64,000 bases of DNA, from contig AP026126.1 of NCBI GenBank assembly GCA_030295235.1, positions 496,001 through 560,000 on the forward strand, read 5' to 3'. How positions within the stretch are numbered: the first letter of the stretch is position 1; each line of letters opens with the position of its first letter. The position numbers were made by a program, and so were the translations under genes. The notes below the pieces were generated by a model that made no database searches, had not been told where the DNA came from, and saw only the letters and a program-made list of their open reading frames with translations. This DNA comes from Fistulifera solaris. Its lineage: Eukaryota. Positions 432 through 62,051 of the stretch are shown here, in pieces.

Positions 432-488
432 CTCGTGACTGAAATCAGCAGTCATGGAGAAAAATTGAAAAGACTTTGGGACTATAGT
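432..488 (-). repeat. Copy of ~55-bp promoter-proximal hairpin element
   Basis: CGTGACTG-AAATCAG-CAGTCATG at 434-456, with ACTATAGT at 481-488 at the conserved spacing. Confidence 0.8.
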
Positions 489-644
489 AAAAGTTGAGCT
501 AAACGATGATTCGACTCAATGAACACGAATAATTTAACAAACTTATCTCATTACGCAATTAATTCGATAGCGAAGACAGAACAATATAGAGAAAGTGAAA
601 GTTAGACACACAAGGGACAATAAAAGGGGCTTAATTTCGTTTTA

Positions 645-668
645 CTCGTGACTGAAATCCAGTCATGA
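645..668 (-). repeat. Hairpin core of the dispersed element
   Basis: TCGTGACTG-AAATC-CAGTCATGA at 646-668. Confidence 0.85.
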
Positions 669-837
669 TTTTGGTTGCATTTTGGATGACAGTCCATTTT
701 GGTGCGCGGCAAAAATTGCGTGGAAAAGACGGTCGATCGAAAAACGAATAGTTGACGGATGAGTTTATCAATCATTAATTCCCATTTACTTATGCGCAGA
801 TCGTTTCTCGAACGAAGAAAACTAATATATCAGTTCA

Positions 838-1655
838 ATGTTTTCTGTTGCTTTTAATCATAAAACGGTGATTACTGCCGCCAGGATTTGTTCTCGCAAC
901 ATGTCGACCAAGCAGCCCCTACGAGCGTATCCGATGTACACTGTGTACGGCGCTGATTGTTACTTTAACCTCAAAGTAATTTTACCCAAATTTCGGACAC
1001 GCAATAATGTGCTTTCTACGGATGGCTTTCCACAATATGGCAGTCTTCTTTTGGAATGGGTCCCTCGCGGAAGCGACGGTAAGTTCAGCGGTCTGTCGGC
1101 CCGGCCCGGTGGCGCTTCTCGGATGTATAAATGCTTCGGTCAGTTCTCACTTAAATTTTTCCACTGCATACATGTACAGGAAAAGGAACTCCAGACCGAA
1201 GTCTACGTTTTGCTCTTTCTCCTCAAGAGGCTGGGTTGCTGATCGATCAGGCACGGAATGAAACGGTCGAGTTTTCGAGGACCGGCTTTCCGCCGAATGT
1301 CGTCGACAAAGTCTTTCGGGTCAGTCCACACGAAGCTGGAGCGGTCGAATTTCAAATCGATTATGAAACAGAAGGCCGCGGTGGTCAGAGTCCCACGGAT
1401 CGTCCCGACTTGGAAGGTATAGCTCCGCTCGGAATAGTGTTTCAGCGTGGCGAGTACGTTGTTCTCCGCGAGCTAATGAGGAATTCTATTCCCACTATAG
1501 CCAACTGGGACTTTATGATTAAAATGCAAGTTGAATCTGCCATTACAGAAGCTTCCAAAAGTCATTTTCAGACGATAGCTCGCCGTATGAAGTGCCTTTT
1601 TAACTGGGCGACACAAATGACGAATTGCTTCAATGTTTTGTTTTCCTTGCAGTGA
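838..1655 (+). CDS. Whirly-domain ssDNA-binding protein, probably mitochondrion-targeted; intron 1079-1179
   Basis: Spliced product YPMYTVYG..LPKF..GSLLLEWVPR..RFALSPQEAGLLI..KVFRVSP..GEYVVLRELMRNSIPTIANWD parallels plant WHY motifs (YSVFKG..LPSF..GSLMMTFMP..KFALSPTEVGSLI..AEFAVM..LPHIMGWD). The GTAAG...TACAG intron joins the two ORFs in frame. The true stop may be 1603. Confidence 0.75.
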
Positions 1656-2054
1656 TCCTTCTCAATACATTCAAACATGTTACTACCATCTGTTTGTTGC
1701 GTGAATTGTAAGGTCTAACAGAATCCATCTAAAAAACTAATAGTAGCTCTCCTTAGTCCATTCTTACTTCTCGTTGGCTTTTTCATGACAACACTCCTCT
1801 GAAGTAAAGCATCTAAAACCGATGCGATACATATCAAAGATACTGAAATAGGAGAGACGACAAAGATTCAAGATTCAACACCGGGATTCACGGTCATCAC
1901 ATTCGGACGAAAGCTCGCGTGCCTCTCTTCGTCTCTTCGTTGCCACAATGCCATCCATCATCATTGCAACGCACGAACTTTTCACAAAAAGCGTTCGCTT
2001 TATTGTGAAGCAACATGCGAGAGAGATCTCAACTTGTAATACCACAACAACAAG

Positions 2055-3458
2055 ATGTGGAAAAGGGAGTCGCGTTCAAGTAATGAAGAGGGTCATCTTC
2101 TTCTGGCGGGCCAAATCATTTCACGGCTCGCTCGATTTTCCGAAATTTTCTCGCGTCGTAATGAAATATTGGAGACTCTTGTCAATACAATTGAAATGGG
2201 TGATTTGCTTGTACTTGTGGGACTCGGGTGGTTTACAATTCCTGTTGTACGTGTCATTTATACATTTTATCACGCGCAATACGACCAAGCAACCAAAGTG
2301 GTGTCTTTGAAGAAGCCTGTCAACACTCAACCCATCAAAACGGAAGATCAGCATGACGCTCCATCATCACAAAACCCACAACAGGAGACCACCGACGTCT
2401 TTTTTCTCTTCCATGCCATTCTACATCGCTAATCTGGCCACAGAAGTATTCCAGCGAGCTTGCCTTGTATATTTCATTGATTGCCTGGTGATCGTTGCGG
2501 ACATTGTCGACCCCAGGCTAGATATTGCGCATCACGAGCTGAGTCTAAAATTTGCAAAAATTATATACTCGATATGGGCTGCTACTCGGCTGATGGCTTT
2601 CAAGAGATACTTACTTTGTCTGGCGGCCAAGCGTCCGGAGACAAAATTGGGGAAGGTTGGCCTCTACGACCGCATATTGGACATTTTGATTCTTTTCTGC
2701 CTCATTCTTGCTATATTGGACATAATGCACGTAGAAGTAGGGCCGGGATTGGCTTCTCTTTTTGCTTTTGGAGGCGTGGGAACGCTGGTGTTAACACTGG
2801 CTTCGAAGGATCTTGCGCATCAACTTGTTTGTGGTGTGGTGGTGTCGACCTCGGAAAATTTTTATGTAGGCGACCATATTCGACTGGGTAATGATACACG
2901 CGGAGCAATTGATTACATTGGATGGCTTTATACGGATGTTCGCGGTAAGTCACTAGGAAGCGCTTGCTATAATACTATTCCAGAAAGGATGCAGGTTCTC
3001 ATTCGCCATTATCTCATATCGTCTACCAAGGATACGATGAAATCACCACTCGCATACCAAATGAGCAGTTTGCAAATCGGCGAATATGTAACATTTCAAG
3101 GCACAATCGTTGTCAAGTGAAGCAGTTGCTTCGTGTGAAACATGCCGATTACAAGAAGATTCCTGCTTTTTGCACCGACATTTTGAAAGAAATTAAGCTA
3201 CAATGCCCTGAAGTAATAGCCGATGGATCCCGTCCTTTTCGAGCTTTCCTCAAGGATATCAAGAGTGACCATTTGTCTGTTGTAGTTGACGCTCGTTTCT
3301 ACCTCCCCGCTATTGGGAAACGGTACGATAACAATCGAAACAAAGTGTTGTTGATCATTTGCCAAGTTCTTGAAAGTCATGATATTTCTCTAGCAATACC
3401 GTCATTTGCAGCTGGAAATTTGGACGATGGGCAGCCAACGACCCTTCTAGACGACTAA
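2055..3458 (+). CDS. MscS-family mechanosensitive channel; intron 2945-3030; frameshift near 2400; start may be further upstream (1948)
   Basis: TM helices, SLFAFGGVGTLVLTLASKDLA..NFYVGDHIRL..IDYIGWLYTDVRG|YDEITTRIPN motif typical of MscS. Confidence 0.85.
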
Positions 3459-3699
3459 ACAGCTTGTACACAGTGCGGCATAAACTAGTCAATGTTTCAA
3501 TTAAGACTTCCTGCTTTTTGTTGCGAACAACTGCTAGTAGTTTATGCAAATTAGCAACCTTAAGGTATTTTATTAGCATACTCCGGGTCATATGTAATGC
3601 GGAGTAATCACTCTTGAGTCTTAATATTCTCCTAGCGTCAATACTCGTGACTCGCATTCTTTTGACTAGCACAAGCGCTAAATTGTCGCTAGTCGGGCC

Positions 3700-4275
3700 G
3701 TCCGTTTGTTTTGCAAAGAAAAAGAAACACCGCAAGGATTGTTAAGCAATGAGCATGCACAACAATGCAAAAACAGTGGACTTGTTATCCAGAGACACGA
3801 CGATCTGAAAGCGGAATTCATGTCTCTTCCACGCAAGCCTTTGGACCCAAATCTGTTCGCGATGAGCCTACCATGTGTAACAGCAACAACAGTACACAGG
3901 TTCAAGAGCTTCGAGGAGATGTTTCGGCCTATGGCTTTTGGAATGAGAGACGAACGACCATTTTCGATGTCCGAGTTACTGATACCGACGCACCGTCATA
4001 CAGAAACCGTGACCCGATTAAGGTTCTGGCTTCTCAAGAGCGTGAAAAGCGTAGCATGTACGGACCCCCTTGCCACGAACGCAGACGAGACTTCACTCCC
4101 CTGGTCTTTTCCATTGACGGAATGATGGGACAACAGGCTATTTCAGCATCGAGACAGCTTGCAAGAAAACTTCAGCCGGAAGTGGAACAAGCCATACTCC
4201 GAGATCTGTGGCTTCATCCGAGCGCATGAGTCTTTCCCTGGTCAGGTCAGTTAGTATGCTTCTCGCGAAATCCAA
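3700..4275 (+). mobile_element. 5'-truncated, frameshifted non-LTR retrotransposon remnant (zinc knuckle + restriction-like endonuclease, CRE-like)
   Basis: Across three frames: C..EHAQQCKNSGLVIQRHD / RGDVSAYGFW..IFDVRVTDTDAPSY..EREKR..Y...RRDFTPLVFSIDG / KWNKPYSEICGFIRA..MSLSLVRS. These are C-terminal RLE-domain motifs; no RT domain is present. Confidence 0.8.
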
Positions 4276-4574
4276 GAGAAGGAATGCCAAAACGGAATCC
4301 CCCCTCATTGGGAAACGGGCTCGGGACTGGCCCTCTACTAGCGCACTAAGGCTAGGGAGTTAGAACCAAAGCTTACTCATTGAAGTGTCAGACTGAAATA
4401 TATGTGAATGAAAAGTGGAAAATTCAGTCGAATGTCAAGATTAGATTCTGACGATTAAAAAATTAGGAATAAAATATATATGTGTTTTACTTGTAATTTG
4501 AGATTTAAATCTATTTGATTGGTACCGATATAGAGTATTGTCTCGAAGTGTTTTTGCAAAATACGCAAAAACGA

Positions 4575-4663
4575 CACCGAATGTGGGGGTCGAACCCACG
4601 ACCACACGATCGATCAAGGATAAGGATAAGAGTCGTGCGCTCTACCGACTGAGCTAATTCGGC
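4575..4663 (-). tRNA. tRNA-Lys(CTT) with 16-nt intron (4611-4626)
   Basis: GCCGAAT/ATTCGGT acceptor stem, GCTC-AGTCGGTA-GAGC D arm, CACGA-CT-CTT-A^A-TCGTG anticodon arm, GTGGG-TTCGACC-CCCAC T arm, downstream TTTTT Pol III terminator; 89 nt = 73 + 16. Confidence 0.97.
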
Positions 4664-4795
4664 TAATAATTTGAAAAGTGGAAACAACAATACACAATAT
4701 AAAGATGTGTTGTACCTGTGCTTGTTCAACGTTTTTTAAGGTTACTGCGTCGGTACGATCCATTTACAGGAGATAGCTAAAGTTCTCTTAGGTTA

Positions 4796-8234: not shown

Positions 8235-9047
8235 TCTCGTGGTCTTTTAAGTGAAAGTTGTGAAAACGAAGCGTTGTGTGAGCAACAAGAAAACGAATTC
8301 GTCTTTGTTCCTTGTTTGTTTTTGGTTTTTGTGCCCTCGTCGTTCGTCAAATGGAGGGCGAACAAAAAAGTCCTTGCGAGACGTGGATTGGAGGTGGAGA
8401 AATTGCGCGTGTACCGAGTACCGTTCTCAAGGTTTTAATCTGCTATACTACGTAGTAACTAATACGTAGTACTCCGTATATTTATTACTATTTAAAGGTT
8501 ACTGTTGAGGTTATAGAAAGACTTACGTTTTGCGTCAAAGAAGTGCGATGATTTTCTCTGCATTCTGTTTCTCCTTGCTTGAAATCAGGTATGGGCGCAA
8601 TAGAATCAATTTTTCGTCGACAAGAGTGAGAACAAAAGAATGGGAGACGAGCCAAACGCTAGAGATGAGAATGTTGACGACCAGAGCGACACGTAGGACA
8701 TCCGCAACGATATTCACGTGCTGTTCATTGAAGGAGAAGCCTCTTTTATGCCAAACAAGTACCCAGACATAGTTAAATCAATGACGAACCTGGGAATGCA
8801 TCCGAATAATTTGATGCGAAACATCAAAGAAGAGGTCGTAAAACTGGAAAGAAAGAGAAAGGCCGTCTTGGTTCCGGTGTAAAACCTGGATTTGCGTCCG
8901 TCACGTCTGCCTAACGATGCTCATTTCTATACGCTATAAAAGCAATCCGATATAATCAATAGATTCCATTTTGTTAGGCGCATATTGTTAACATTCGACA
9001 AAACTCTATCGATCGTTTACAACACATCATGAATATTGAATGTCGCA

Positions 9048-9836
9048 TTACGAGCAATGGATTGGGTGACTAGGTGAACGGGACTCCACAAAGGCGGCAA
9101 CCAGCACGATTGTATGGTCTTCAGCATTCACATCACCAAAGTATGCGATCACGCCTTTGCCATATGCATGCATGGCGACTACAGACTCGTAATTTGCATC
9201 ATTCGTTTGCGGCGGGGCGCGCTCTTCCTCTTCGTCATCACTGTCGTCATCATAGTCCATATAACGGTCCGTTACCCCGAAACAGCGCTCGTGATGCGGA
9301 ACAGACCTCATCGAAACAGCCTTGGCACTATATTCTTTTATGAATTCCTTGGAGTGTTTGCCTTTTCCAAACGAGTCAAGAATGTTTGCTTCATTGACGT
9401 CAAGGGAAGGCGCCCAAGTAATTCTGGAGTAGCTTGCCATTTTCCATTCGACGTCAAATAACCTGGCCAGTGTCGACACAATTAGTCCCTCTGACGATGG
9501 AAAAGCCACTACTCCACCAGCTGCAGCGAATTTCTGAAGCAAGTTACCGAAATCCATTTCGAATCTATGAACCTCATCAGGGTCCGAGTAATCGAGAACA
9601 ATAACAGCGTGATAACGTCCACTTTCGATTTCTTGCCGACCTCTTTCTACACCAAACGCATCCGGCGGGAGACCTTCATCATTTAAGTACTCAGGATCCG
9701 AGCACCAGACGCGAAAGGGATGAAGATGTGCGAATCGAGGCTCGCCGTCCAAAGATTTGTACGTTTGATACTTGTTTTGCATCCACGACACTTGGCAGTA
9801 CCCTTCGATGAAAAGAACATGAAGATCTTCAGTCAT
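9048..9836 (-). CDS. Hypothetical protein (possible class I GATase-like fold; YGKGVIAYFGDVNAE motif)
   Basis: 262-aa ORF with protein-like composition; FAAAGGVVAF and G.G.IAYFGDVN motifs. Confidence 0.65.
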   Translation of the reverse strand: MTEDLHVLFIEGYCQVSWMQNKYQTYKSLDGEPRFAHLHPFRVWCSDPEYLNDEGLPPDAFGVERGRQEIESGRYHAVIVLDYSDPDEVHRFEMDFGNLLQKFAAAGGVVAFPSSEGLIVSTLARLFDVEWKMASYSRITWAPSLDVNEANILDSFGKGKHSKEFIKEYSAKAVSMRSVPHHERCFGVTDRYMDYDDDSDDEEEERAPPQTNDANYESVVAMHAYGKGVIAYFGDVNAEDHTIVLVAAFVESRSPSHPIHCS

Positions 9837-14399: not shown

Positions 14400-14987
14400 G
14401 TTCGATAGTTGGTAAAAATACCACTATATTTTCAGCAGGTGGTCTCCAACTTTCGCTTTAGCAGTTACGACGTAAGACTGTATTCGTTTATTCATGTTGG
14501 CGTATCGCCATATTGTTGGGTTTGCTTGTTCCATTTTGATCATCAAAATCAGCCCGCGTACCTGGTACAAGTACTACGTATACTTGTCGTCATTCGTTGT
14601 TTTGGTACCGGTACGATAGAGTGTTGCACTGATCAGTCACGAGTCGTGTGTCGCGAACAAGTTATTGGTCAAGTTCGTTCCTTCATCAGCGTCTTTTATG
14701 GTCGTCCTTTGCATGACATGAAAAAATTCATCTTTGCCTGTTTCTTAGGTACTCTCACTAACGGAATAATCGGGAGCCGACAATGCTTGGTCGACCACCT
14801 AAGAAAACGAGACCAAATTCATGTGTTCTAATATGAGCTTTCGATTTGGGATAGTTCAGCCTAACTGGAAGTAACAAAACACTTGCTATTGCCGGTCATC
14901 TCAATAGTAAATTACAAATGACAAATTGGTCGGCCTCGATTTTTTGCATCGATAAATTGTTCCCGCTGATGAAGCTCGGAGTTTTGT

Positions 14988-15044
14988 ACTATAGTAAAAA
15001 GTGTAGGCGACCTTTTTTCATGATTGGAATTTCAGTCATGAGTC
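14988..15044 (+). repeat. Copy of ~55-bp promoter-proximal hairpin element
   Basis: ACTATAG-TAAAAAGTGTAGGCGACC-TTTTTT-CATGATTG-GAATTT-CAGTCATG-AGTC. Confidence 0.85.
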
Positions 15045-16167: not shown

Positions 16168-16245
16168 ACAACTTAAAAATCACGGAGGTTGCATATCTAA
16201 ATGTAAAGCTTAATTGGCAACGCCTCGCTATCTTTTTGTTCGAAT

Positions 16246-42687: not shown

Positions 42688-42739
42688 TATAGCTCCATTT
42701 TACGCAACTTTTCCCTAGACTGCATTTCAGTCATGATTC
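42688..42739 (+). repeat. Copy of ~55-bp promoter-proximal hairpin element
   Basis: TATAGCTC...GACTG-CATTT-CAGTCATGATTC. Confidence 0.75.
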
Positions 42740-42893
42740 GTGATATTGGCGTGCGAGATTTCTACCTAGACCTTCGTTCTTTTGCTAGGTTAATAAAATA
42801 TAGGTATCCCTAGCCTGATGCATGTACCTTCAGCAGCATCTATTATGCATGCTTTGATTTCCTGGTGTCGATTAGATCGTGCCCTAGTCAAGA

Positions 42894-42950
42894 GTATATG
42901 CCAAAAGTGTAGGCGACCTTTCTTCACGACTGCATTTCAATCATGAATTC
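42894..42950 (+). repeat. Copy of ~55-bp promoter-proximal hairpin element
   Basis: GTATATG-CCAAAAGTGTAGGCGACC-TTTCTT-CACGACTG-CATTT-CAATCATG-AATTC; shares AAAAGTGTAGGCGACCTTT exactly with the copy at 14988. Confidence 0.88.
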
Positions 42951-43049
42951 GAGCTGTGAAGTGAGATCGATGATCGATGATCGGCAGTTTTCATTACGTT
43001 CAATGCAATAATACTCCACAATAAAATTAAAAAAGATCACAGCAGCAGC

Positions 43050-44613: not shown

Positions 44614-44724
44614 GAGACGAGCCTGTATGATCAAGGCCAAAAGCATTTGTCGTTGTATCGAAGAGCTTTAAAGACCGCTTTGCAAAATTTTATTGACAAG
44701 GAATCCAATGAAATATATGCTTCA

Positions 44725-45778: not shown

Positions 45779-46123
45779 GGTTACTTTTGATCGAACGACG
45801 AAAAGGAAAAATTAAAAAAAATTACGGAGTACGGAGTATTTAATTATCTGGTAGGACAGTTCGGTGTTAAGAACAGGACGAACAAGGCGCAAACACATCA
45901 TCGTGTCGCACTAGTACCCGAATGTCGTTGTGGCATTTGAACTGTCAAGTGAAGTGGAGTGGAGGTGTTTTCTACGTACCAACTTTACGTAAAATACCGT
46001 AGACGTGTTACACACGATGCTGCCGCATTGCTTCATTCATTCAAATTAAATAGGTAATGATTCTTCCGCTGTTGTTCATCTCAAAGAACGCTTAACTAGA
46101 ATGTCAATAGAAGGACCGTTCGA

Positions 46124-47314: not shown

Positions 47315-47340
47315 AGACGGAGTACTAATCAAACTTCGGC

Positions 47341-49693: not shown

Positions 49694-49804
49694 TCGAGAT
49701 TTTTGAAGTGTGCGGCGGTTTTTGGTTTAAAAAAAACAACAACAACCCGTCTCATGACACGCAAACACGAAATCCGATCGTATAGTTCTCTTGATGATTC
49801 ATAA

Positions 49805-49861
49805 TTCATGACTAAAATCCAGTCGTGGTTCAGTTGATGGAAGAACACTTTGAACTATTGT
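49805..49861 (-). repeat. Copy of ~55-bp promoter-proximal hairpin element
   Basis: Minus strand reads ACAATAG-TTCAAAGTGT...CACGACTG-GATTT-TAGTCATG-AA. Confidence 0.8.
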
Positions 49862-50013
49862 CGTTGCGTGTGTCGCACTAACACACCCATCACAGCCACC
49901 GGATGATTTTTTCCCATTTATTGCATCACAACCAAACAACATTCTTCTACCATTCATTAAGAATGATACCAGCATCTCCGACTCGTCATCTCCTTTTCTC
50001 TTTTTAATTCATC

Positions 50014-52660
50014 ATGATACATTTCTTCTTGGTTTTGACGCACATTTTTATTGACAGTGCTATTGCTTGGACAGTCTCCTTATCGGATCGGCATTTTGTC
50101 AATTATAATACACCCCGTTCTTTCAAACGATACGCTTCGACTCCCTTTGAATCAGACTTGTACATTCCTCCGGAAAATGAAAGCTCGAGATCAGCACTAG
50201 CTGTACCAGATGATACGCAACTCGTTCTTGGGATAAATAAATACTCGCATGATACGTCATTATGTGCGGCCGACGCCAACACGGGTCAAGTCCTTTTCGC
50301 CCTGTCCAAAGAGCGCATCAGTCGTCGGAAACATGATTCGGGGAATATTGCTTCCTTGGTGGAAGTCTGCCTGGAGTCTCTCGATTTGCAGCTCGAAAAT
50401 ATTCAGAAAGTTGTCATGAACAATCACCATCATCGAATCTTACCGCTCGAAGAGAACAAACAATTTCACATGGAGTGGGAGTCGGCACTCAATATGAATG
50501 CGGGACACGAAAGTGGCTACGACGAACCAGAAAACACCTTACCCGATGCGGAACGCATGGAACTATCGCATCATTTGGCTCACGCGTACAGCACGGCCGC
50601 GCAGGCCCCGTTTGATGCGGGTCTCTGTGTCGTCATGGACGGTATGGGTGACACCTACAGAACGATGCTGCAAGCACAAGTTCAAAAGGATAACTCTTAT
50701 GTGAGTGATCTTACTTTTGGCGCAGATACTTTCCAGTGTATACCCAGTAACATCCAGGAATTGGCCGCATCTAGTCCGTTTGATTTCCGTGAAGCAGAAA
50801 GTGTATACCAGTTTCGGAAACAGACGTCGGAGAACGGCGCAAAGATAGATATTTGGCCCATTTTCAAGCGTTTTACCAGAGAAAATTCTCCACCTACGCT
50901 TTATAATCATGGATTTGAAAACATGGACGGTTTGGGAGCAGTCTATTCGAGAGCAAGTACTCACATTTTTGGAGACTGGAATAGTTGTGGTAAGGTGATG
51001 GGACTAGCTCCATGGGCTGGGTATCGTTGGACAGATAGCAATGGATATGAACTAGCCCCAAGGTCGATACTGGAACCTACGATGACCGGGTCAGTTTACA
51101 TTGAACAAGGCGACAATGCTTTGAAACTGGATAAGGCACTGATGGAAAAAGAGCCCTACTGCACAAAAAAATGATCCGGAGTTGTTCAACCCAGTTGACG
51201 GCACCATGAGAAAACGTTACGATTTCGATGACGATGACTTCACTTCTGGTGACAAAGCTGGACGGCGTTTACCTGCTTCGGTGGCTCTCAATGCTATATC
51301 GTTGGCAAGCCGTGTACAAGAAGACCTTGAAGAGGTGGGACTAGATTTTGTGAATTATTTCAAGGAAAAAACTGGCGAAACGAACCTTTGCCTTGCTGGA
51401 GGTGTTGCATTGAACTCGGTGTTGAATGGTCGATTGGCTAGAGATATCGGATTTGAACAAACTTTCATTTCTCCTTATCCAGGAGATGATGGCATTGCTG
51501 TTGGCTGTTGTGCTTTCGGGCTGTTTGGAAATAGTCGTCTTGGTATCAGCTCATCTATCCAATCTGAGAAGAACGCAGTGAGAGTATGGGACAAGCCTCT
51601 TTCTCCTTACCAAGGGCCCAGTTACGCGGACGATGAAATCAAAGACGCAATCGAACATGCACGTCCTTGGCTTGAAATCGATGTCGTACGAGATGAAGAC
51701 CAACGACTCGAGTTGATGGCTCGAGAGGTAGAATCTGGTGGGGTCATAGCATGGTATCGTTCTCGCTCAGAGCTTGGTCCTCGTGCACTAGGACACCGCA
51801 GCATTCTAGCTGATCCTCGAAAAAAAGGCTTGGTAAGGTTTATTAACGAAGAAGTCAAAAGCCGCGAGAGTTTCCGTCCATTTGCACCAAGTGTTTTGGC
51901 CGAAGAAGCAGATAAGTGGTTTGCAATTGGAGAAAGCAGACTAGACAACAATGTCAGTCCTTTCATGAGCATGACAGCCATTGTTCACAAAGCAAAACGA
52001 GCCATTATACCCGCAGTCACACACGTTGACGGTTCATCGCGCCTACAAACAGTAACGCGTGAAGACGAACCAATATATCACAAGTTCATTTCTAAATTTT
52101 TTGAAATAACCGGCGTCCCAATGGTGCTGAACACGTCTTTCAACACACTTCCAAGTGAACCCATCGTCGAGACACCGCACGACGCAATTCGGAGTTTTCT
52201 CTACTCCATGGGTTCAATTGAAATGCTAGTGATGGAGGACTACATTATCAAGCGAAAGAGAGCGGATGTTCGTAAACTACTTGGTGAAGCTTCAAATTCT
52301 GGAACGATAAAAACGGAACCCTCGTTCCCAAGGCGTACAGGCTTTGCTTATTTTGAATCATCCTTTACTTTAGAAGACGGAAACAACGAAAATGTATCAC
52401 CCAAAACACGTGTAAAAATGCCGGATAGACCCATGCACGGGAACAAAAACGAATGGTTTGAGCTTCTTGACGATCTCGAAGGAGAGATCCTGTCAGTTTG
52501 CGATGGACAAGTATCGTTGAATGATATTATGACATTCTACACTGCAGTGGAGCAAGAAGAAGCTTTGGGAGAGAAGAACGTCGCCGATGCGCAAAACATT
52601 TTGCAAAACACAGTCCACCGTTTAGTTCGACTGTATGAACATACGTTAATAAGTTGGTAA
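50014..52660 (+). CDS. O-carbamoyltransferase, NodU/CmcH/TobZ family, with signal/plastid-like presequence; frameshift in the A-run near 51165
   Basis: SHDTS, KERISRRKHD, SHHLAHA, MDGMG, GKVMGLAPW, CLAGGVALNS..NG, PGDDG.AVG, ELGPRALGHRSILADPR, VKSRESFRPFAP, HVDGSSRLQTV, LNTSFN. Confidence 0.93.
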
Positions 52661-52743
52661 TTATTTCTTTAAAAACGTATTTGTCCTATGTAAGAATGTA
52701 AAAATTGTATTCGGATTTCATCTATGATTCTAAAAGCGATAGT

Positions 52744-54129
52744 TCATGCGTGTTCAAGATGATGTTGTAGAATCTGTTGCAGCACCTCTTGGATCAATAC
52801 TTTTCTATCCGCATTCATAATTTCATCTTTCTTGATGTTTTCCAAAAACAAAGAGACTGTCTCTCTCAAAAATCCCGTCACTTCCTTGTTGGCGACAAGA
52901 ATAGTCTGGATTCCATCACCAATCATAGCTATCGCATTGCGGTCGTCAGAATGATCATGCTTGATTGCATGCAGATATAGATTGATAATAATAGCATGTT
53001 TCTCTTCCAAAGATGGAGCTTTGACTACGAGGTTCCAAGGAAAGCGGAAAGCGCGAGTAGTCTCCAGAATGCTGTGTACAATCGATACCCAAAAGAAAAA
53101 CGTGCGGTAGTCGGCGCTATCGGATGAGAGCGCCAGCTCGGTCTTTGATGAATATTCATGACACCGGCGAATGGCATCTGAAAGTATACTGTCGCCTCCA
53201 CCAGATAGAACAATATCCAGGCATTGGTCTGCAGAAAGATGTGCATTCCAAGATGTGAACCAGGTCGCAGCCGGGTCAACTTCGACCACACTTTGTCCGG
53301 CGACGGACATTCTACCTTCGGCATCCGCTTCAAGCCATTTCCAAAAGCATTCGCCTATACTCTGCACCCGCTTGTCGTGTACATAAACGCCTCGTAGCAT
53401 CCAGTCTTCAAACATAAGCAACGCCAATTCAACATAATTTCGAACCGTATTGTTTGTTTCTGTCGAGAGAACTATTCCAGAAGCAAGTTGTTCATCAATA
53501 ACGGTGACTAGATTTTGGCATAGACCGATTTGCATGGTGCGAAACTCGTTTGATGCGCGGCTTTTACTAAACCAACGCTTATGAAGTTCAAAAAAGTCGT
53601 GTGACGACGAGCTTAGCTCGTTGCGTAGACCTTCCAAAAAGAAGGGAGCCAGGTGTTCATCCCAATCGAGCAAAATATCCTGCAAGTACTCAAGACTCAG
53701 CAAAATCTGAACCCTCTTTCCCGTGCTCTCGCCCGATTCTTCCACCAAACGCTCCCATGACATGAAAGAGCCCAGAGACGCGCCGCCGAATAGCAAGGAA
53801 AACTGCGAAGGCTTTGACGGCGCTGTTGTCTTCAATTCCGGCAACGGAACGGAATTGCTCTTCCAGAGACGAACGGCATCTTCTCGCACGCGGGTTAGAA
53901 AGTCTTCGTCTGGCAGGCTACCATCGCCGCATCTGCGCCTTTCCTGGCATTCTTCCGCAATCTTCCGCAAGTAGCCATCGATTGTCTCTTGACTTGGCTC
54001 CCTCTTCTCATCGCTGGAGTACAAAATTGAAAGATTCTCCGCTAACGACGTTGCAGCAAGATGGCCCAGTTTTCTCTCGAGAGGATCTTTCCATTCGTAT
54101 GCTTTCTCTTCCGCCAGTTTTGTCGTCAT
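52744..54129 (-). CDS. Hypothetical helical protein
   Basis: Long open frame (461 aa from ATG 54129) with protein-like composition; no motif recognised. Confidence 0.7.
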   Translation of the reverse strand: MTTKLAEEKAYEWKDPLERKLGHLAATSLAENLSILYSSDEKREPSQETIDGYLRKIAEECQERRRCGDGSLPDEDFLTRVREDAVRLWKSNSVPLPELKTTAPSKPSQFSLLFGGASLGSFMSWERLVEESGESTGKRVQILLSLEYLQDILLDWDEHLAPFFLEGLRNELSSSSHDFFELHKRWFSKSRASNEFRTMQIGLCQNLVTVIDEQLASGIVLSTETNNTVRNYVELALLMFEDWMLRGVYVHDKRVQSIGECFWKWLEADAEGRMSVAGQSVVEVDPAATWFTSWNAHLSADQCLDIVLSGGGDSILSDAIRRCHEYSSKTELALSSDSADYRTFFFWVSIVHSILETTRAFRFPWNLVVKAPSLEEKHAIIINLYLHAIKHDHSDDRNAIAMIGDGIQTILVANKEVTGFLRETVSLFLENIKKDEIMNADRKVLIQEVLQQILQHHLEHA

Positions 54130-54705
54130 GGTGAAAAAATGGATCAAATAGGGGCTTTGCCAACACACGATAATACTCGCAGAAAACAACAATAGGGATG
54201 CTGATTCGTTTGAAAAGCGTTGCACGATCGCTTATTGTTGTGCGACTAAGGCGGGTTTCTCACAATCCGATGATCTCCGAAGCGCATCACGCCCATCAAC
54301 ATCGACATCACGACCTTGTCGGATCTTCGGAGGGAGATTTCCGCGGATGCACGACTGACTGCCATGCTTCGCACTATACGTTGTAAAGTAAAGTGGCATG
54401 CATTTTTTCGTTTTCGGATTACGTAGCTTTTTTCAAAACGGGATAGGCGTTCCACATTCTAAAGCTATGGTGACGTCCCCCGTTGCGATTGACAGGAACG
54501 GCTCAAAGGATGAGGATATGTCCGTTGGTTGTTTGACGGGCGGAGGAGAGACGGCGAACGTCGGATCAAAAAGAAAATTGACGGCTGCCGAATGCCGACT
54601 CTTGTGCACAATTACAAGGTACCAGGTACTTGTAGTTCATCGTATTGAAGGATAAGTTTTTATTATCCTCTGTTTACGAATACATAGACCAACTACTTCA
54701 TCAAG

Positions 54706-55430
54706 ATGTTTTCTATCATTCGAAATCTGAAACAACCCGCTTGTAGAGGATGCAATCTGATGCATCGAAAACTTTCCGAACCTTTCGTGACACCCGTTAC
54801 TGCAACACTACCTACGAATCATCTTGTTCTCCGCCAGCAAACTCGATCTCGATGGACCAAGGCGAAAAAGAAGCGTTTCGCTCGTTTTGAGTTGCGCAAG
54901 AAACTAGAAGAGGAAGGAAAATCATTACCGAAACCTGCGTATTATTTTCCTCGCGACACCCCCGTCGCCAACGCTCTTAGCAACACCGAGCGAGAAGCGC
55001 AGCGCACCGCCTTGAACGAAAAGGCATCAACCGAGATGAAAGCACGCTTGGAACAGAAAGAAGCCGAATTGGCACAGACTCCTATTCTGCGTCATCACTT
55101 TGGTGGTATTCAAATGAGTGAGCGCGTGCAAAAGCTTTTCGATTTGCAGAATGCCAGTCAAATGGAGCGAATCAAGTCGCAGAAGCAAAAAGTGATGCAG
55201 ATTTTTCAATACCGCCCGGGTGATACAGGAAGTTCTGCCGTTCAAATCGCTGCTCTTTCTACTCGCATTCAACAAATGCAAGCGCACATGACCAAACACA
55301 AGAAGGATAAACATAGTAAACGAGGAATGGAAGCACTTTTTCGCGACGTCGAAAGATGCTTGACTATTTGGAGCGAAAAGACTTTGAGAGCTATCGTCGT
55401 GTGGTGAAAGCACTTGGATTAGCCCGTTAA
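54706..55430 (+). CDS. MRPS15: Mitochondrial ribosomal protein uS15m; frameshift near 55340
   Basis: GDTGSSAVQIAALSTRI..HMTKHKKDKHSKRG, continuing in another frame as RRRKMLDYLERKDFESYRRVVKALGL; presequence-like N-terminus. Confidence 0.92.
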
Positions 55431-55526
55431 TACTAATTTTAATAACTTCCGATCAATTTGAAACTTGACTGGATTTTTTTTCGAATAAATCAGTGCGACA
55501 GAGTGCTAGTCAAACTATAGTCAAGA

Positions 55527-57350
55527 CTACAACCCCGATGTGGACTGGGAAGATAATACAGCTTTTCGGAGGACTTCGTTCTGTTCTCGGTAGCCATCGC
55601 GTTCGGCTTGTAGAACCATCATTTGTTTTCTACAATTCTTTACTTCCTTGACAAGAAGCTTCTTGGTTGCTCTCCATTCACGTTCGTTTTCGGTCCATTT
55701 TTCCCGCTCAAACTGTAGCATGTCACCCATGACGACTGCCTTTTGTTCGGCATGCTGTTTTATCGTTGCCATTTGATCACGCATCTCTTCTTCATTCTTC
55801 TTGTGTATCTTAGCTTCTCGTTCCAGCTCTTGGACTCTCCCGTCTAGAAATGCAATTACTTCTTGATCACTGGCGATTTGTTGAGATATTTTGGATTCAT
55901 TGTCTCCAATAGCCGCCAAAGTCCCTTCCATATCCCGTACTTTAGCGATTAAAAATTGCTTGACCCCTTCCGTACTTTCTAACGTTGCGGCGAGTTCTGA
56001 CTTTTCCTGCATAAGTCTCTCTACCAAACTTTCCTTTTGGCGCAACCGTTCCGTCATCACTATGATTGCGTTTAATTCCGCATCCGAAAGTTTCGATGCC
56101 ATCGAGCTTGCCAGGGCGGCGTTCATAGGTTGCTGAGCGTCCGAATTGGACCGTAACGGAGTTCGTGGAGGTGAAGGAGCGAATTTACCTCCCCGAGAAG
56201 GCTGTAGCATGGACGAGAATAAGCCACGTATCCCTTCCGCAGCTGAAGCGGTGGTCAAGGGGCTACTCTCGGAGCGGCGTAAAAAATGATGAGACGGGGA
56301 CGACGACGAAGGCGGTGACGAAGGTCCTGTCTGTGTCTCGAGATTGTTCACTTTACTGGACATTCCCGAAGCAACTTGAGTGGCTTGAGATGTGGTAGCA
56401 GTCGTTTCCACCGTCGCAATTGTCGAATTGTCAATACTGTCATTTCCACCACTCCCATTTCCGAGCCCAAACAATGTATCAACTCGACTGTACATGGATA
56501 TATTCACTTGAGCTGTATTGAGAATATCGAGCGCGTCGAGGTAGGCAAAAATTTGCATGAGAATCTTTGTTTCCAGGTTTTCCAGGGTCGGGACATCCTC
56601 TTGGATATCTTCTTCTAGAGCGACGACCGAATGGGGCTTGGCCAGAGTCTCTGTAGAAAGGAGCGTGTCTTCCGACTTTACTAGAACGGGTTGCTGTATA
56701 TTTGGTGGAACGTCTGTTTCTATCGTAAGTGGTGCGGGTACCTCGACGGAAGCTGCTCTTGCTACAGGAACGGAAGGCTCTGGCAATTGTACAATGGTGG
56801 CCTCTAGTGTCACCTTCGTACACTCCGTATCTTTACTTTCTTCCTTTGTTCTTTCTTTCGACCTTTCCGCTTTGGGTTTCTCTTGCTCCTCATGTGTTGG
56901 GCTTTGCCGAGAGACAGTTTCTTCGACGAGCGATTCTTCACTGCGATCGTTTCTACGACTCTCATTTTTCCGCTTGGCTTCCACCAGTTCTTCCTCCATT
57001 TGTATAAGCTTTGCAACGACTTCATCATATTGAATCAAAAAATCTTCATGTTTTTGTTTGATTAGTTTCAGTTCACCCATTTGTCGACTCAGCGCCAAAA
57101 GTTCTCGAACCAAATTATCCGCCACATATCTTTGCAGATGATAGCGTTCCTGAATGAGCACTTTCGATTCTTCCAGGGCCCACTCCTGTTCCACAACCTT
57201 TTCCTTTAGATACTTTAGCTCCTGTGCATGTGCCAGCTGCTCCTCCAACTTTTCAGCAATTTCGACATCCATAACCATTTCCTGGAGGCATTTTTCCACT
57301 GTAGAACGAATTTTGACATCCTCCAACGCACGGAGGAGTGTCTCCTCCAT
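55527..57350 (-). CDS. Coiled-coil protein with central F-box-like motif
   Basis: 607-aa ORF; LENLETKILMQIFAYLDALDILNTAQVN; C-terminal heptads including KKLLVKEVK. Confidence 0.78.
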   Translation of the reverse strand: MEETLLRALEDVKIRSTVEKCLQEMVMDVEIAEKLEEQLAHAQELKYLKEKVVEQEWALEESKVLIQERYHLQRYVADNLVRELLALSRQMGELKLIKQKHEDFLIQYDEVVAKLIQMEEELVEAKRKNESRRNDRSEESLVEETVSRQSPTHEEQEKPKAERSKERTKEESKDTECTKVTLEATIVQLPEPSVPVARAASVEVPAPLTIETDVPPNIQQPVLVKSEDTLLSTETLAKPHSVVALEEDIQEDVPTLENLETKILMQIFAYLDALDILNTAQVNISMYSRVDTLFGLGNGSGGNDSIDNSTIATVETTATTSQATQVASGMSSKVNNLETQTGPSSPPSSSSPSHHFLRRSESSPLTTASAAEGIRGLFSSMLQPSRGGKFAPSPPRTPLRSNSDAQQPMNAALASSMASKLSDAELNAIIVMTERLRQKESLVERLMQEKSELAATLESTEGVKQFLIAKVRDMEGTLAAIGDNESKISQQIASDQEVIAFLDGRVQELEREAKIHKKNEEEMRDQMATIKQHAEQKAVVMGDMLQFEREKWTENEREWRATKKLLVKEVKNCRKQMMVLQAERDGYREQNEVLRKAVLSSQSTSGL

Positions 57351-57981
57351 TTTGATCGCGTAAATTGTTTTTACGTCGATGCACGGACCGCCTCCGAAAA
57401 CAATTTAGAGCTTGATTCTTGCGTTGAACGACTTTTGTGCTTCCACAACGTTCGCAAAGCCTAATTGCTGTTCTACTACAATCCAATCAACTTCTGGATT
57501 TTTTTCGAGTGAGTTTTTTTTTCTTCACACAACACACGAATGCGTGAACTTTTCACTTTTCACTCACAATGAAAGTGTCGCAATAGGACCCATTTCAAGT
57601 CGTTGAGTTTCGGACAAGGCTACGTGGTACACGGGTAAAGAGAAGTGCGGAAATTGAATACCACTTACTTGAAATCAATGTAGTTTTTAGTTACACTGAT
57701 TCCTCGTATTTATAATTATGATCTACAGTTTTACGTATAGAGAAATAGAAAACGTTTCGTGTTTAAGCACAAAGATGACCGGCGACGCCATGCCATGCAC
57801 CATGGTCGATCTGTTGCTGCGGTGCTTGCTTGGTGCTTGGGCTTGGGCAGGGCGACGACCCCGACACTCCTCCTCCAAACGGTCCAATAAGTGCGGTATC
57901 ACGGCGTTTTGCAGTGCAACTCCAAAAACAGACCAACATATACAATCCTCAGAAGTTCATTCAATAATAACTAGATTTACA

Positions 57982-60020
57982 ATGACGACTCCCGAAATGT
58001 CTCTAAAGGCCGCCCAAGTCAAGGCGGTGCACCGTATGTTGGCCTTCAACGAAGAATCATCCGCCGCCACCTACGACAACGACTTTAGCTTACCCCCGGC
58101 CGGATCCAGCAACAATCAGTGGAAGATTTTAATTTATGACGCAGCTTGTCGATCGATCATTTCCCCCATCATGTCCGTCCAGCAATTACGCCGACGTGGA
58201 GTGACGCTGCATCTGTTGTTGAACTCGGAACGCGAAGCCATTCCGGATGTGCCCGCCATTTACTTTTGTCGCCCCACGAAAGAGAACTTGGCAATCATCG
58301 CTCAAGACTGCGCGAAAGGTCTTTATGATCGAGCGCATTTGAACTTTGTCACGAAGTTGGATCGGGAATTGATGGAAGAATTCGCCAAACTGGTGGTGCA
58401 AACGGGAAGTTTAAATAAGGTGGCCTCGGTGCATGATCAATATCTCGATTACGTTTGTCTAGAGAAACGCCTTTTTAGCTTGCATAAAGTCAATTCTTAT
58501 GCAATATACAATGGTTCGGGGACTACTGAGGCGATGATGGAGCAGGCAATGACAGAGATCGCGTACGGTTTGTTTTCAGTTGTTGCGACGCTGGGCCATA
58601 TTCCGATAATTCGCTGTCCCAAGGTGAGCTACTGAATGTGCGTTTTTGTTTTATTTTCTTGCCAGACACTTCTAAACTTAATTTTGGATTCTTTTGAAAG
58701 GGCGGTGCACCTGAAATGGTAGCGAGAAAATTGAACCGAATGATTTCTGAGCACCCAACACTCCTCCGCAACAAAAGCTCAATTACTCGGCCGCTGGTTG
58801 TAATATTGGATCGAAATGCCGATTTGATAACACCTATTCAGCACACGAGTACTTATCAGGCTCTCATCGATGATTTGTTGAAGCATCAGGCAAATCGCGT
58901 AGAGTTCGAGGTCGTGCAGGACCCAGACTCCAATCGCCCAAAGAAAACGCAAAAGCGTTTTGATCTCGATCCCGACGAGGATCGATTCTACTCTGCACAT
59001 AAATTCCAACCATTTCCAGAGGCTATCGAAAGTAACGGTGCTGAATTACAGGAAGTCACCGCTCGCGAACAAGAGATTCGATCCAAAACGGGCGGTGCTG
59101 ATCCGAGTTCCGCCGTCGATCCACTTTCGAGTGGGGCGAACGACCTTGCCAATGCCGTTGAATCGCTACCAGCACTACTGAATCGAAAGAAGCAGTTAGA
59201 GGTTCACACAAGTATCCTTCAAGCTGTCATGAACGAAGTGGCGGCTCGTGATGTTCCCCAATTCTACGAACTGGAGTCGGCCCTTGCAACCGGAACTTAC
59301 AAAAATGACCCAACCAAGGCAAAGCAAAAGGTTCTAACGTTTGTTGGTGATGCAGATAAAGGTAGTGTAGAAGACAAAATTCGCCTCATCATGGTCTATG
59401 CTCTTACTACAGCTGCGAAGACTGCGGAACTCGATGAAGTGGGGACAGCATTACAACAAGCGTGTGAAATGAAAGCGGCTCAGGACGCTTCAGTACGCCA
59501 AGTTCTTTCCAATGGTTTAAAAGCAATTAGTTATTTGAAGAAGCTACGGTCGATGCATATGATACCATCTGCCGCAGATATGCTGCAGGAGTTGCAGGCT
59601 ACACCAGGTGGTGAAAAGTCTTCTTCGCATGTATTTAGCAGTCTTATGGCCAAAGCAACGACGCAGGCGACGGATTTACTGGCCAAGGCAACCGATAAAG
59701 TTACTTCTATGCTGGGAAAGATCAATAAGCATCACGCAACTGTCGTGGTGGAAAATCTTTGTGAGATGAAACCTGGCACGGAAGACGAAACATATCTGTA
59801 TCTCGACCCAAAAGTCAAAGGTGACGTCGATGTTATCAAGTTACAATCGATGACACGTGCTACTGTGCGAGAAGCCATTGCTTTCGTGATCGGAGGAGGG
59901 TGCTACGGTGAGTATCAAAATTTGCAAATGGTTGCAAACGATCGACGACAAATCAGTTACGGCAGCACCGAACTTCTTAATGCCAGTGCATTCTTGTCGC
60001 AAGTAGGACAGTTAGGCTAA
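57982..60020 (+). CDS. SLY1: Sec1/Munc18 family protein Sly1; intron 58624-58700
   Basis: WKILIYD...IISPIMSV..LR..GVTLHL, IPDVPAIYFCRPT.EN, VHDQYLDY, RPLVVILDRN.DL, TYQALIDD, FVIGGG.Y.EYQNL, YGSTEL. Confidence 0.95.
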
Positions 60021-60152
60021 ATAGACTCTTTTTAAAATTGTGTTTGTCTGGCAGCTAGTAATATTACAGACAAATTCTGTCCACATTAAGCAAGTTGCAA
60101 AAAAAAACAATGTAGCCGAATTTATTGTATAAATACTTTCTAATGACATCAA

Positions 60153-61096
60153 TCATGAAAACGGTATAGGGCCGCTCCCGTCGATGATATCGCGACAATT
60201 CGGCTTTGATTCTCGCCCAAACTCGGGTAGCATCAAGTGCGCATCCCTGCAACGAACTCGGTTCACGTAATCCACAAACTCCTCCCTTGGCATCAACTTC
60301 GAGCCGAGCGTTTGCTTGTAGGCCATATCCATACCCAAATCCCATAACTCAAAACCACACCGAGACAGCAAACGTCCGAGGGTCAGTAGTTGCACCGATC
60401 CGGCCGAATCTTGTACCGTAAAGCCCGTCAATGAAGTATAAATACTACCCACCGTATAACCCAATTCTCCCGCCACCAGATTGTCCAAATCATCCCAAAG
60501 TTCCATCGAATAGAGACGAACCGGACAACACCTCTCAACAACATCGTCCAATACGTGTGTTGGCATTCCTTTGGATGCGTCCGATGAATGGCGGAGAACG
60601 CTTCGACCAGTTGCGGAATAAGCCAACAATTCACACCGTGTTGTCGTCGACACCCATCTACCACTTGATCAAAAGCTTGATTGAACGACGGTCGGTACTT
60701 TTTTGACTTTTTACGAGCCGATTTGGAAATGTGGAGACCGTTCGGTAATTGAATCACGCAGCGATGTTGATGCAACTTGGGCAACAACAATTGTTCGGTG
60801 GCAATCGGCAAGAAACCTTCCGCCATGAGTTGACACACGACATCCGGATGGAACACGGGAGAGACGCAGAAATCTCCATGATACGGGATGACGATGCGTT
60901 TAAGTGATTCGGGGATGTAGGATTGCAAACACCGGCGTCTCTCGGTCATTCGTTGGCGAACGCTGGCGTCCGTTTGTGTTGACTTTCTCAATGCCATGGG
61001 ATGACGCTCATTGTCGGTTGGCGTGGCCGGTGATGAAGAGTTTTCTTGTTCTGTGATCAGTTCATTTGGACGGTCATGCTTGATATTGGGGGCCAT
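60153..61096 (-). CDS. Leucyl/phenylalanyl-tRNA-protein transferase (Aat)-like aminoacyl transferase; frameshift near 60570
   Basis: LLLPKLH..RC, HISKSARK, FNQAFDQVVDGC, CWL, SMELW...LVAGELG...GSIYTSLTGF, WDLGM..YK. Confidence 0.85.
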
Positions 61097-61767
61097 TCTG
61101 TAAAGCGTAGTCGTATAGCGTCTAGACAAACGGGTTAGTTCTGCTTCTAATTTGTTGTTCCGTTCTTGGACGTCTTTCGTCGTAATTTTCCTTTGAGTAA
61201 TTCAAGCCCAAGATAGCTCTTGCGTGATAGGGGTCCGCAGCAACTATTCACCAAGTGAGAAAGAAAGGAATGGCATTCTATTATTTCATCTTCCCTCGCC
61301 AGTTCGCAAAAAACAAAAGGGTCGTCCAAATCCAAAGTCTCCGCCGGTCACGAACGAGTACCGTTATTTACTATTGGACGGTCTGTACAAAGTAGTCTGT
61401 AGGTAATATTATGGTTTCAGTCCCAGAAGTCATCCACGGCCATGGTTCCCCTTACCTCTTGACCCCGATGTTGACCAGCATTCGAGGCTACCGACATAGT
61501 AAACGCCTTTCGACCTCATTACTCAATCAATCATAAATCGCAAATGAAGACAAGAATAATCCTTGATAACGTCATAAAGGCACCCGTAACATGGTAGAAA
61601 AATTTATTGTACTATGTATAAATTTAAAAAACAAAAGGCTGACCGTGGTGTACGCGAGAAATCTGAACGGATCCGCTGTTGCTTTGTCAAAGAAGTCCAA
61701 AAACCTAAAATGTGTGTTAGTTTCTTTCTGGCAGAGGGGGTAAGCAGCAAAAGAACCTTGCGGATCT

Positions 61768-61812
61768 AAGTGTTGACGGTTTTTCGCCACGACTGCATTT
61801 CAGTCATGAGTC
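61768..61812 (+). repeat. Copy of promoter-proximal hairpin element
   Basis: AAGTGTTGACGGTTTTTCGC-CACGACTG-CATTT-CAGTCATG-AGTC. Confidence 0.9.
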
Positions 61813-61994
61813 ACTTTCCTTCCGAGCAACGCTACTACGCTACTACCAAACTTCCACTTGGATTCTGCTCAATGAGCGGGCGTTTTTTTTGTTTCATTCA
61901 GAAAGCAATAGCGTTCAGCAGCATTTGCAATACACGCGGCGACTCATAATGCCGAAAGTCCTTACGGATCTCTGTTCTTCCGTACAAAGTATTT

Positions 61995-62051
61995 ACTATA
62001 TAGCTCAAGTGTTGACGGTTTATCGCCACGACTGCATTTCAGTCATAAATC
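61995..62051 (+). repeat. Copy of ~55-bp promoter-proximal hairpin element
   Basis: ACTATATAGCTC-AAGTGTTGACGGTTTATCGC-CACGACTG-CATTT-CAGTCAT; 62007-62046 differs from 61768-61807 at 1 of 40 positions. Confidence 0.9.

What the first reader, a model, noticed from the sequence alone, without database searches (positions are those of the whole stretch)
432..62051. Orientation-locked ~55-bp hairpin element upstream of unrelated genes
Seen: eight clear intergenic copies at 432-488(-), 645-668(-, core only), 14988-15044(+), 42688-42739(+), 42894-42950(+), 49805-49861(-), 61768-61812(+) and 61995-62051(+), plus degenerate pieces at 19892-19912(-) and 14616-14645(+). Consensus is approximately ACTATAG-N3-AAAGTGT-N14-17-CAYGACTG-(C/G)ATTT-CAGTCAYG-A(G/A)TC, i.e. 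an 8-9 bp inverted repeat at a near-fixed distance from a TATA-like word. At all five loci the proximal copy points toward a gene whose ATG lies ~105-165 bp downstream (ATG 316, 15184, 43050, 49693, 62211). I noticed no full copy inside a CDS. Inference: this could be a composite core-promoter or dimeric-TF site (it contains an Inr-like TCAGTC), or a domesticated transposon end. The 5' part resembles Tc1/mariner TIR starts, and hairpin-plus-CTATAGT on the other strand is reminiscent of Helitron ends. A random TE remnant would not be expected to keep both orientation and distance to genes.
Basis: partly seen in the sequence, partly recalled or inferred. Interest (0 to 1): 0.78.

Follow-up and report, generated by a model that had tools for sequence, protein, structure and literature searches.

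The report
Dispersed diatom repeat with conserved palindrome
The short palindrome-plus-boxes motif is real, but it is the best-kept part of a roughly 220-base repeat scattered between this diatom's genes in either orientation; it probably binds a protein, and it is not a promoter locked to the next gene.

Summary
The motif is real and genome-wide: 1,161 matches of the 21-bp inverted repeat (IR) against 0 for the control. It is the conserved core of a ~219-bp unit found singly or in head-to-tail rows of 2-10.

The orientation lock fails outside the window. In co-directional gene gaps, 13 clusters point at a gene end and 11 at a start; distance to ATG is not fixed.

Relatives of one window unit start and end at scattered positions, and no target-site duplication or partner end was found. 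All five window loci recur on the homeologous chromosome. In 9 orthologous pairs the IR diverged 5% against 18% for flanks; two other tests did not show this. The stem is not compensatory.

Best reading: a satellite-like family spread by DNA copying, whose IR is a double-stranded protein-binding site under some constraint; function unproven. This scan noted the same family in at least five other windows of this genome. No printed description was found in 10 searches.

The parts
432..488 (-). Full core: box 1 and box 2 (472-488), linker, IR at 434-456 with a 2-bp insertion
   Evidence: a same-size insertion is in the C5 homeolog
489..646 (-). Spacer part of the ~219-bp unit joining the two copies
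   Evidence: unit profile positions 1-203 match 667-473, E=2.6e-8
647..667 (-). IR of the outer copy; boxes decayed
   Evidence: C5 homolog has a 5-bp insertion in it
14988..15044 (+). Solo core, IR at 15019-15040 with a 1-bp insertion; weak unit remnants from 14931 and to 15082
   Evidence: orthologous copy on C5
42715..42735 (+). IR of the first copy of a dimer (no intact boxes)
42736..42892 (+). Spacer part of the unit (period 210 bp)
   Evidence: unit profile E=3.5e-25 (this unit was in the training set); alignable to C5
42893..42949 (+). Full core, IR at 42925-42945
49803..49861 (-). Solo core, IR at 49807-49827
61768..61812 (+). Box 2 and IR (61788-61808); box 1 missing
61813..61994 (+). 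Spacer part of the unit (period 239 bp); 93%-identical relatives lie at C4:1.307 Mb, C4:1.465 Mb and C6:0.905 Mb
61995..62051 (+). Full core, IR at 62027-62047, 164 bp before the ATG (62211) of a DXP reductoisomerase gene

Best explanation
A lineage-specific, dispersed short-array repeat (satellite-like) with a ~219-bp unit. SHOWN: it spreads by DNA-level copying, because near-identical rows sit at unlinked or subgenome-specific places with arbitrarily permuted ends and no target duplication. SHOWN: its core (box 1 ACTRTRG, 4-5 bp, box 2 AAGTGT, 13-15 bp, IR CAYGACTG-VATTT-CAGTCAYG) is far better kept than the spacer across copies. INFERRED: new rows arise from circular or concatemeric copies of one unit (a core-spacer-core dimer can loop out a one-unit circle), inserted by repair at breaks in intergenic DNA. 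INFERRED: the spacers then erode while the IR is kept because a sequence-specific, probably dimeric, protein binds it as double-stranded DNA, acting independently of the direction of neighbouring genes (regulatory, chromatin or replication role; not resolved).
For: 1,161 vs 0 matches; 748 vs 5 for box 2 plus half IR. Per-column identity to consensus 0.89-0.94 in the IR, 0.74 in the boxes, 0.47-0.65 in the spacer, 58 non-redundant units. Clusters: 41 single, 38 double, 13 with three or more, of 92; periods mostly 205-240 bp. Four relatives of the window unit start at unit positions +40, +6, -61, -20 and end at +50, +67, +7, +26. No target duplication above shuffles in 61 loci. Spacer remnants beyond the outer core in 13 of 97 (upstream) and 15 of 97 (downstream) vs 0 of 257 random intergenic pieces. 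14 of 15 C6 clusters have a cluster in the same gap on C5, and C5 has extra rows of 9-10 units. In 16 copies from 9 orthologous pairs: IR invariant sites 15/286 different, boxes 25/197, linker 66/217, flanks 601/3353; 4-fold sites 3616/18401; partner copies deviate from consensus at 9/286 vs 9.0% expected, P=9e-5. The stem has a C-A mismatch in 105 of 162 copies and an A-C mismatch in 33 of 162, while the asymmetric ATTT spacer is 88-94% conserved.
Against: The constraint test used 16 of 52 copies; 36 were dropped for lacking orthologous flank on both sides. The unfiltered version gave 58/583 (9.9%), no signal, with visibly non-orthologous alignments included. Among 51 loci from two near-complete exact-variant lists only one homeolog-like pair shared the variant (L119/L120), which fits neutrality (low power). 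Many kept copies carry indels in the IR. Short-tract gene conversion among copies could mimic constraint. No binding protein, circle or transcript was observed. No clean empty site was recovered: the homeologous gaps of young rows are rearranged.
Confidence: 0.52

Rival explanations
1. Eroded non-autonomous rolling-circle transposon (Helentron/HINE-like): boxes = 3' subterminal repeat, IR = 3' palindrome; rows are head-to-tail products; conservation reflects needs of the element, not of the host.
For: Layout fits the last 60 bp of HINEs: subTIR 38-60 bp and palindrome 8-35 bp from the 3' end, no target modification (PMC4067079, passages). No target duplication here. A T-rich run often follows the IR.
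Against: An inverted copy of the boxes lies upstream in only 2 of 82 clusters, and both are part of another whole core. Ends of young rows are scattered. IR constraint after insertion. Stem is not compensatory.
Confidence: 0.22
2. A multigene family of short non-coding RNA genes with an external promoter: box 1 and box 2 act as upstream elements at about -31 and -20, and transcription starts at the IR.
For: Box 1 starts 31-32 bp before the IR in 63 of 162 copies and box 2 ends 13-14 bp before it in 80 of 162; such spacing resembles TATA-to-start distance (own knowledge). The module is asymmetric.
Against: No consensus structure in 10 units (0 pairs; four rows were out of register); circular-fold z medians -0.5 and -0.9 for 24 units; no Rfam match; box 1 tolerates ACTGTGG, unlike a TATA box.
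Confidence: 0.1
3. A miniature LTR-type element (TRIM/SMART-like): core = terminal repeat, spacer = internal part, giving solo, dimer and tandem forms.
For: Core-spacer-core and solo cores dominate (79 of 92 clusters). Some copies have a purine run next to the IR on the opposite strand.
Against: No target duplication; no sharp boundary or TG...CA ends, similarity fades gradually; young rows begin and end inside the spacer or IR.
Confidence: 0.06
4. One reading: an orientation- and distance-locked core promoter of the downstream gene.
For: 5 of 5 window loci point at an ATG 105-164 bp away. Convergent gaps are under-used: 2 of 63 vs 11.8% of intergenic length, P=0.016.
Against: 13 against vs 11 with in informative gaps; distances broad and alike on both sides; no TCAHW; rows of up to 10 units. 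Convergent gaps are short and probably mostly UTR (inference).
Confidence: 0.05

Closest known systems
Small euchromatic satellite clusters, Drosophila 1.688 and Rsp-like (bioRxiv 10.1101/846238; passages seen)
   Same: Dispersed short clusters near genes, old and young arrays, variable junctions, insertion beside another repeat family; spread proposed there via extrachromosomal circles and microhomology repair.
   Different: No large heterochromatic block seen here (not searched for directly); the unit has a sharply conserved IR-plus-boxes core with divergent spacers; circles not shown here.
Helentron/HINE (DINE-1-like) elements (PMC4067079; passages seen)
   Same: Box plus palindrome within about 60 bp, no target duplication, tandem forms.
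   Different: No 5' subterminal partner, no fixed ends, no coding partner found.
Non-LTR retrozymes (PMC7229834 and 10.64898/2026.07.22.740005; search listing and abstract starts only)
   Same: Short dispersed or tandem non-coding units thought to spread through circles.
   Different: No hammerhead core (1 and 3 of 58 units per strand have the words; no Rfam hit); no conserved fold.
Fistulifera solaris 'centromere/ARS' motifs 1 and 3 (bioRxiv 10.1101/2021.11.10.468027; section 7 and passages read; supplements closed)
   Same: Share 11 bp (CGACTGAATTT) with the left arm and spacer of one IR variant; also reported at intervals along chromosomes.
   Different: A different family: no right arm, no boxes. 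In this window those motifs lie at about 4395-4480, in the 3' tail of a retrotransposon fragment.
TRIMs and Cassandra tandem arrays (PMC4717578, PMC7215508; search listing only); CryptonS (PMC3212892, passages); Replitrons (PMC10288648, parts 1 and 3 of 7)
   Same: Direct-repeat-bounded small elements; CryptonS occur in a diatom and end in TATGG, which is one variant of box 1.
   Different: No fixed termini or target duplication here; no tyrosine recombinase found with PF00589; Replitrons were not detected in diatoms by that paper.

Membership tests
Orientation-locked core promoter | Same strand as the gene whose start it precedes | tested here: not met
   13 against vs 11 with
Orientation-locked core promoter | Fixed distance to the start | tested here: not met
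   45-711 bp, median 294, predicted starts
Orientation-locked core promoter | Transcription starts at the element | not testable with these tools
   only contigs of four runs were available
Helentron/HINE | 3' box plus palindrome within about 60 bp | tested here: met
   (layout only)
Helentron/HINE | 5' subterminal inverted partner | tested here: not met
   2 of 82 clusters within 1.2 kb
Helentron/HINE | Fixed termini in T runs | tested here: not met
Helentron/HINE | RepHel partner in the genome | tested here: inconclusive
   PF14214 found nothing, but nothing rang in the controls either
Tc1/mariner or MITE | Inward-facing terminal inverted repeats and target duplication | tested here: not met
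TRIM/SMART | Terminal direct repeats with solo and tandem forms | tested here: met
TRIM/SMART | TG...CA ends and 4-6-bp target duplication | tested here: not met
Non-LTR retrozyme | Hammerhead ribozyme in the unit | tested here: not met
Crypton | Tyrosine recombinase partner and short terminal direct repeats | tested here: inconclusive
   PF00589 none in G000, controls rang 14 of 14 but are prokaryotic; no fixed ends
Dispersed short-array satellite | Head-to-tail monomers of similar length in many dispersed short clusters | tested here: met
Dispersed short-array satellite | Variable junctions, within-array homogeneity, turnover between subgenomes | tested here: met
Dispersed short-array satellite | Extrachromosomal circles | not testable with these tools
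   needs circle-enriched sequencing
Replication origin / ARS | Supports episome replication; ORC or nascent-strand peak | not testable with these tools
   only an 11-bp overlap with published motifs of another family

The most novel reading that the evidence does not exclude
The core is a sequence-defined chromosomal landmark, for example a replication origin or chromatin boundary, bound by a host dimeric protein at roughly 1,500 intergenic sites. Because it works on a looped-out 220-bp circle as well, it amplifies and re-seeds itself: a host control element that is also its own selfish replicon, with no transposase of its own.
Probability: 0.13. Interest if true: 0.82.

Novelty: new variant of a known kind. 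Interest (0 to 1): 0.5.

Why it matters
At the least it is an apparently undescribed, abundant intergenic repeat family (rough estimate 1,500 loci, 2,500 copies) that promoter-motif studies in this diatom would confound with regulatory signals. If the constraint on the IR holds genome-wide, it gives a defined 21-bp handle on an unknown diatom DNA-binding protein and a direct test of whether diatom origins, boundaries or enhancers can be sequence-defined, which matters for episome design. The allopolyploid genome makes that test cheap: every locus has a dated sister copy.

Tried and rejected
Expression: no RNA holder listed. Contigs of four coded runs laid on 42400-62399 left the element bins, and also two of the downstream genes, with little or no cover in X2-X4; no inference drawn.

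Strand polarity along chromosomes (lead from e1-7527623): C1-C5 differed in strand share (chi-square P=0.0014; likely homeolog pairs, so not independent), but on contigs C7-C46 same-strand pairs were 48 of 109 (P=0.92). Rejected as general.

Coding partners: PF14214 (controls silent) and PF00589 found nothing.

Other collections: viral contigs 0; metagenomes 0 for the composite pattern and 5 for the IR. Of these, two lie in ORFs that read like pyruvate kinase (my reading), two overlap a gag-like ORF, and one (L151) has two adjacent IRs behind an unnamed ORF. That ORF has 6 unnamed relatives, no Pfam hit, only sub-0.9 Atlas hits, no match in G000 with this query, none in viral contigs and none in my fetched DNA.

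RNA structure: no Rfam family on the element, no consensus fold, no hammerhead.

Empty sites: homeologous gaps of five young rows were too rearranged to give a junction.

Literature: 10 searches gave no description of this family. PMC5935921 (passages) names only a TABASTA promoter motif in its main text; its motif table is in a supplement that I did not open. Supplements of the bioRxiv genome paper were closed and may bear on novelty.
Full report
Setting. The window is G000:C6:496001-560000 of a 51.7-Mb assembly in 62 contigs: a gene-dense eukaryote of about 46% GC. It has a colinear sister region on C5 at 82-93% identity with 19.7% difference at 18,401 four-fold sites. An ORF in the window has its closest named relatives in Fistulifera solaris. 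I treat it as an allopolyploid diatom of that type and use C5 as a dated sister copy.

Observation. A core profile trained on 45 copies from other loci scores them at 21.6-46.9 bits, against at most 7.9 in controls. The two degenerate pieces are not supported. Genome-wide the IR has 1,161 matches at up to one mismatch against 0 for the reversed pattern; box 2 plus the left arm has 748 against 5. The 224-kb C6 stretch holds 15 clusters and 26 copies and is 2.4 times richer than average, so the genome holds very roughly 1,500 clusters and 2,500 copies (my scaling).

Anatomy. In 162 non-redundant copies the core is box 1 (ACTRTRG), 4-5 bp, box 2 (AAGTGT), 13-15 bp, then CAYGACTG-VATTT-CAGTCAYG. 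The stem is not kept as a stem: one pair is C-A in 105 of 162 and the next is A-C in 33 of 162, while the asymmetric ATTT is 88-94% conserved. That fits sequence recognition on double-stranded DNA better than a hairpin, though imperfect hairpins are also read by some single-strand transposases (own knowledge). Paired copies are joined by a homologous spacer. Fifty-eight non-redundant units align to a 219-position profile, with identity to consensus 0.89-0.94 in the IR, 0.74 in the boxes and 0.47-0.65 in the spacer. Of 92 clusters, 41 are single, 38 double and 13 have three or more copies. Young rows are 93-100% identical inside.

Orientation and distance. I trained a gene model on C5 and C6 and applied it to 73 other 3-kb loci (79 fetched, 6 overlapping ones dropped). 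None of 77 clusters overlaps a predicted exon; one lies within a gene span. Where both neighbours were called (48): 23 divergent, 13 facing a gene end, 11 facing a start, 1 convergent. Two of the 11 are a homeologous pair; 10 vs 13 gives P=0.68. Pfam confirms the faced gene's strand in 8 of the 13. On C6 the counts are 8, 2, 4 and 1, and one of the two 'against' is the window's 432 locus, whose short gene the model missed. Distances to predicted starts are broad on both sides (medians 294 and 236 bp; 19 of 57 and 11 of 52 within 95-170 bp; P=0.20); missed first exons would inflate both sides. Convergent gaps are under-used (2 of 63, P=0.016), which may only reflect their short, transcribed length. 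The IR lacks the TCAHW initiator-like word described for diatoms (PMC4686930, passages). The window's 5-of-5 pattern comes from four divergent gaps and one informative case.

Age and spread. All five window loci have an orthologous copy on C5, and 14 of 15 C6 clusters have a C5 cluster in the same gap, though at some gaps the content has turned over (output partly cut). C5 also has rows of 9-10 units that C6 lacks (output partly cut). The unit at 61788-62026 has three 93%-identical relatives elsewhere; the four start at unit positions +40, +6, -61, -20 and end at +50, +67, +7, +26. A scan of 61 loci for 4-6-bp duplications at any fixed offsets gave no more than shuffles, and similarity fades gradually beyond the outer cores. 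Spacer remnants extend beyond the outer core in 13 of 97 and 15 of 97 cases, against 0 of 257 random pieces. An inverted partner of the boxes lies upstream in 2 of 82 clusters. Several young rows sit inside or next to a second tandem family, as Rsp-like does in 1.688 clusters (10.1101/846238, passages). Copying is shown; a circular or concatemeric template and repair-based insertion are inferred.

Constraint. A first test that accepted any alignable partner gave 58 deviations in 583 sites, no signal, but included clearly non-orthologous alignments. Requiring orthologous flank on both sides, judged without the IR, kept 16 of 52 copies (9 pairs). IR invariant sites differ at 15/286, boxes 25/197, linker 66/217 and flanks 601/3353; partner copies deviate from consensus at 9/286 against 9.0% expected per branch (P=9e-5). 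Against this: only one homeolog-like pair shares an exact variant among 51 loci, many kept copies carry IR indels, and short gene conversion is not excluded. I read this as moderate evidence of soft constraint on the IR in place.

Mechanism. Most likely (0.52): a satellite-like family that re-seeds itself as permuted 220-bp rows, whose IR is a binding site for a dimeric protein acting without regard to gene direction. The right end often reads TGA(G/A)TCA, which recalls bZIP sites (recalled, not tested). Rivals: eroded Helentron-type ends (0.22), small-RNA genes with external promoters (0.10), a miniature LTR-type element (0.06), a locked promoter (0.05).

Comparison with what is known. It behaves like dispersed euchromatic satellite clusters and meets the sequence-level tests for that class. 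It has the 3' layout of HINEs (PMC4067079, passages) but fails the partner-end and fixed-end tests; it fails the TRIM, MITE and retrozyme tests. It shares 11 bp with the published F. solaris 'centromere/ARS' motifs, but those are another family: here they lie at about 4395-4480 in the tail of a C6-specific retrotransposon fragment. Ten paper searches found no description (listed under Tried and rejected); unseen supplements may hold one. Five earlier notes of this scan appear, from their short descriptions, to concern the same family in other windows; they are leads, not support. I tested their strand-polarity lead and did not confirm it.

Verdict. Real, abundant, apparently undescribed; not orientation-locked; a new variant of a known kind with an open question about what binds the IR. 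Interest 0.5.

Noticed in passing
window 3557-4557 (+): About 1 kb absent from the C5 homeolog: ORF 3765-4229 is related to the C-terminal part of reverse-transcriptase proteins, i.e. a 5'-truncated non-LTR retrotransposon just upstream of a tRNA gene. Its 3' tail (about 4395-4480) carries the published F. solaris 'centromere/ARS' motifs 1 and 3, so those motifs may be retrotransposon tails; a second copy in L075 had no such ORF match.
   Followed up: partly
window 4575-4663 (-): tRNA gene with an interrupted anticodon loop; ARAGORN cannot call the anticodon. Present on C5 too.
   Followed up: no
G000:C5 about 591430-591600 and 531980-532170 (L049, L043): A 140-190-bp insert with a hairpin and CTAG at one end, Helitron-like by recalled features, sits inside the repeat's spacer at two loci.
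   Followed up: no
G000:C5 about 960300-962500, 509000-511900, 619400-621300; C4 1465200-1466700: A second tandem family built on CCAGAA(A/T)TTCTGG words, with units of roughly 240 bp, often flanks or replaces rows of this repeat.
   Followed up: partly
L131:1888-1963, L143:669-744, L138:2180-2252, L141:3989-4044: A 75-80-bp palindromic mini-element recurs beside rows of the repeat; a 300-bp element with long inverted ends abuts the row in L040 and has copies on C13, C40 and C49.
   Followed up: no
L151:980-1085: A metagenome contig of unknown host has two adjacent IRs and a third half-site behind an unnamed 240-aa ORF; possibly the same motif in another organism.
   Followed up: partly
window 8630-8900 and 9048-9836; G000:C5 534900-538000: C5 holds two copies of a gene with a TPR-like tail (my reading); C6 keeps a deleted remnant at 8630-8900 beside a related ORF on the other strand.
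   Followed up: no
L147 (C7:21000-25000) and L148 (C1:2701000-2705500): Near-identical (up to 99.9%) inverted subtelomeric duplication carrying back-to-back clusters of the repeat.
   Followed up: no
window 23551-23640 (+): Borderline Rfam hit to fungal snoRNA Afu_264, exactly at the gathering score; probably chance.
   Followed up: no
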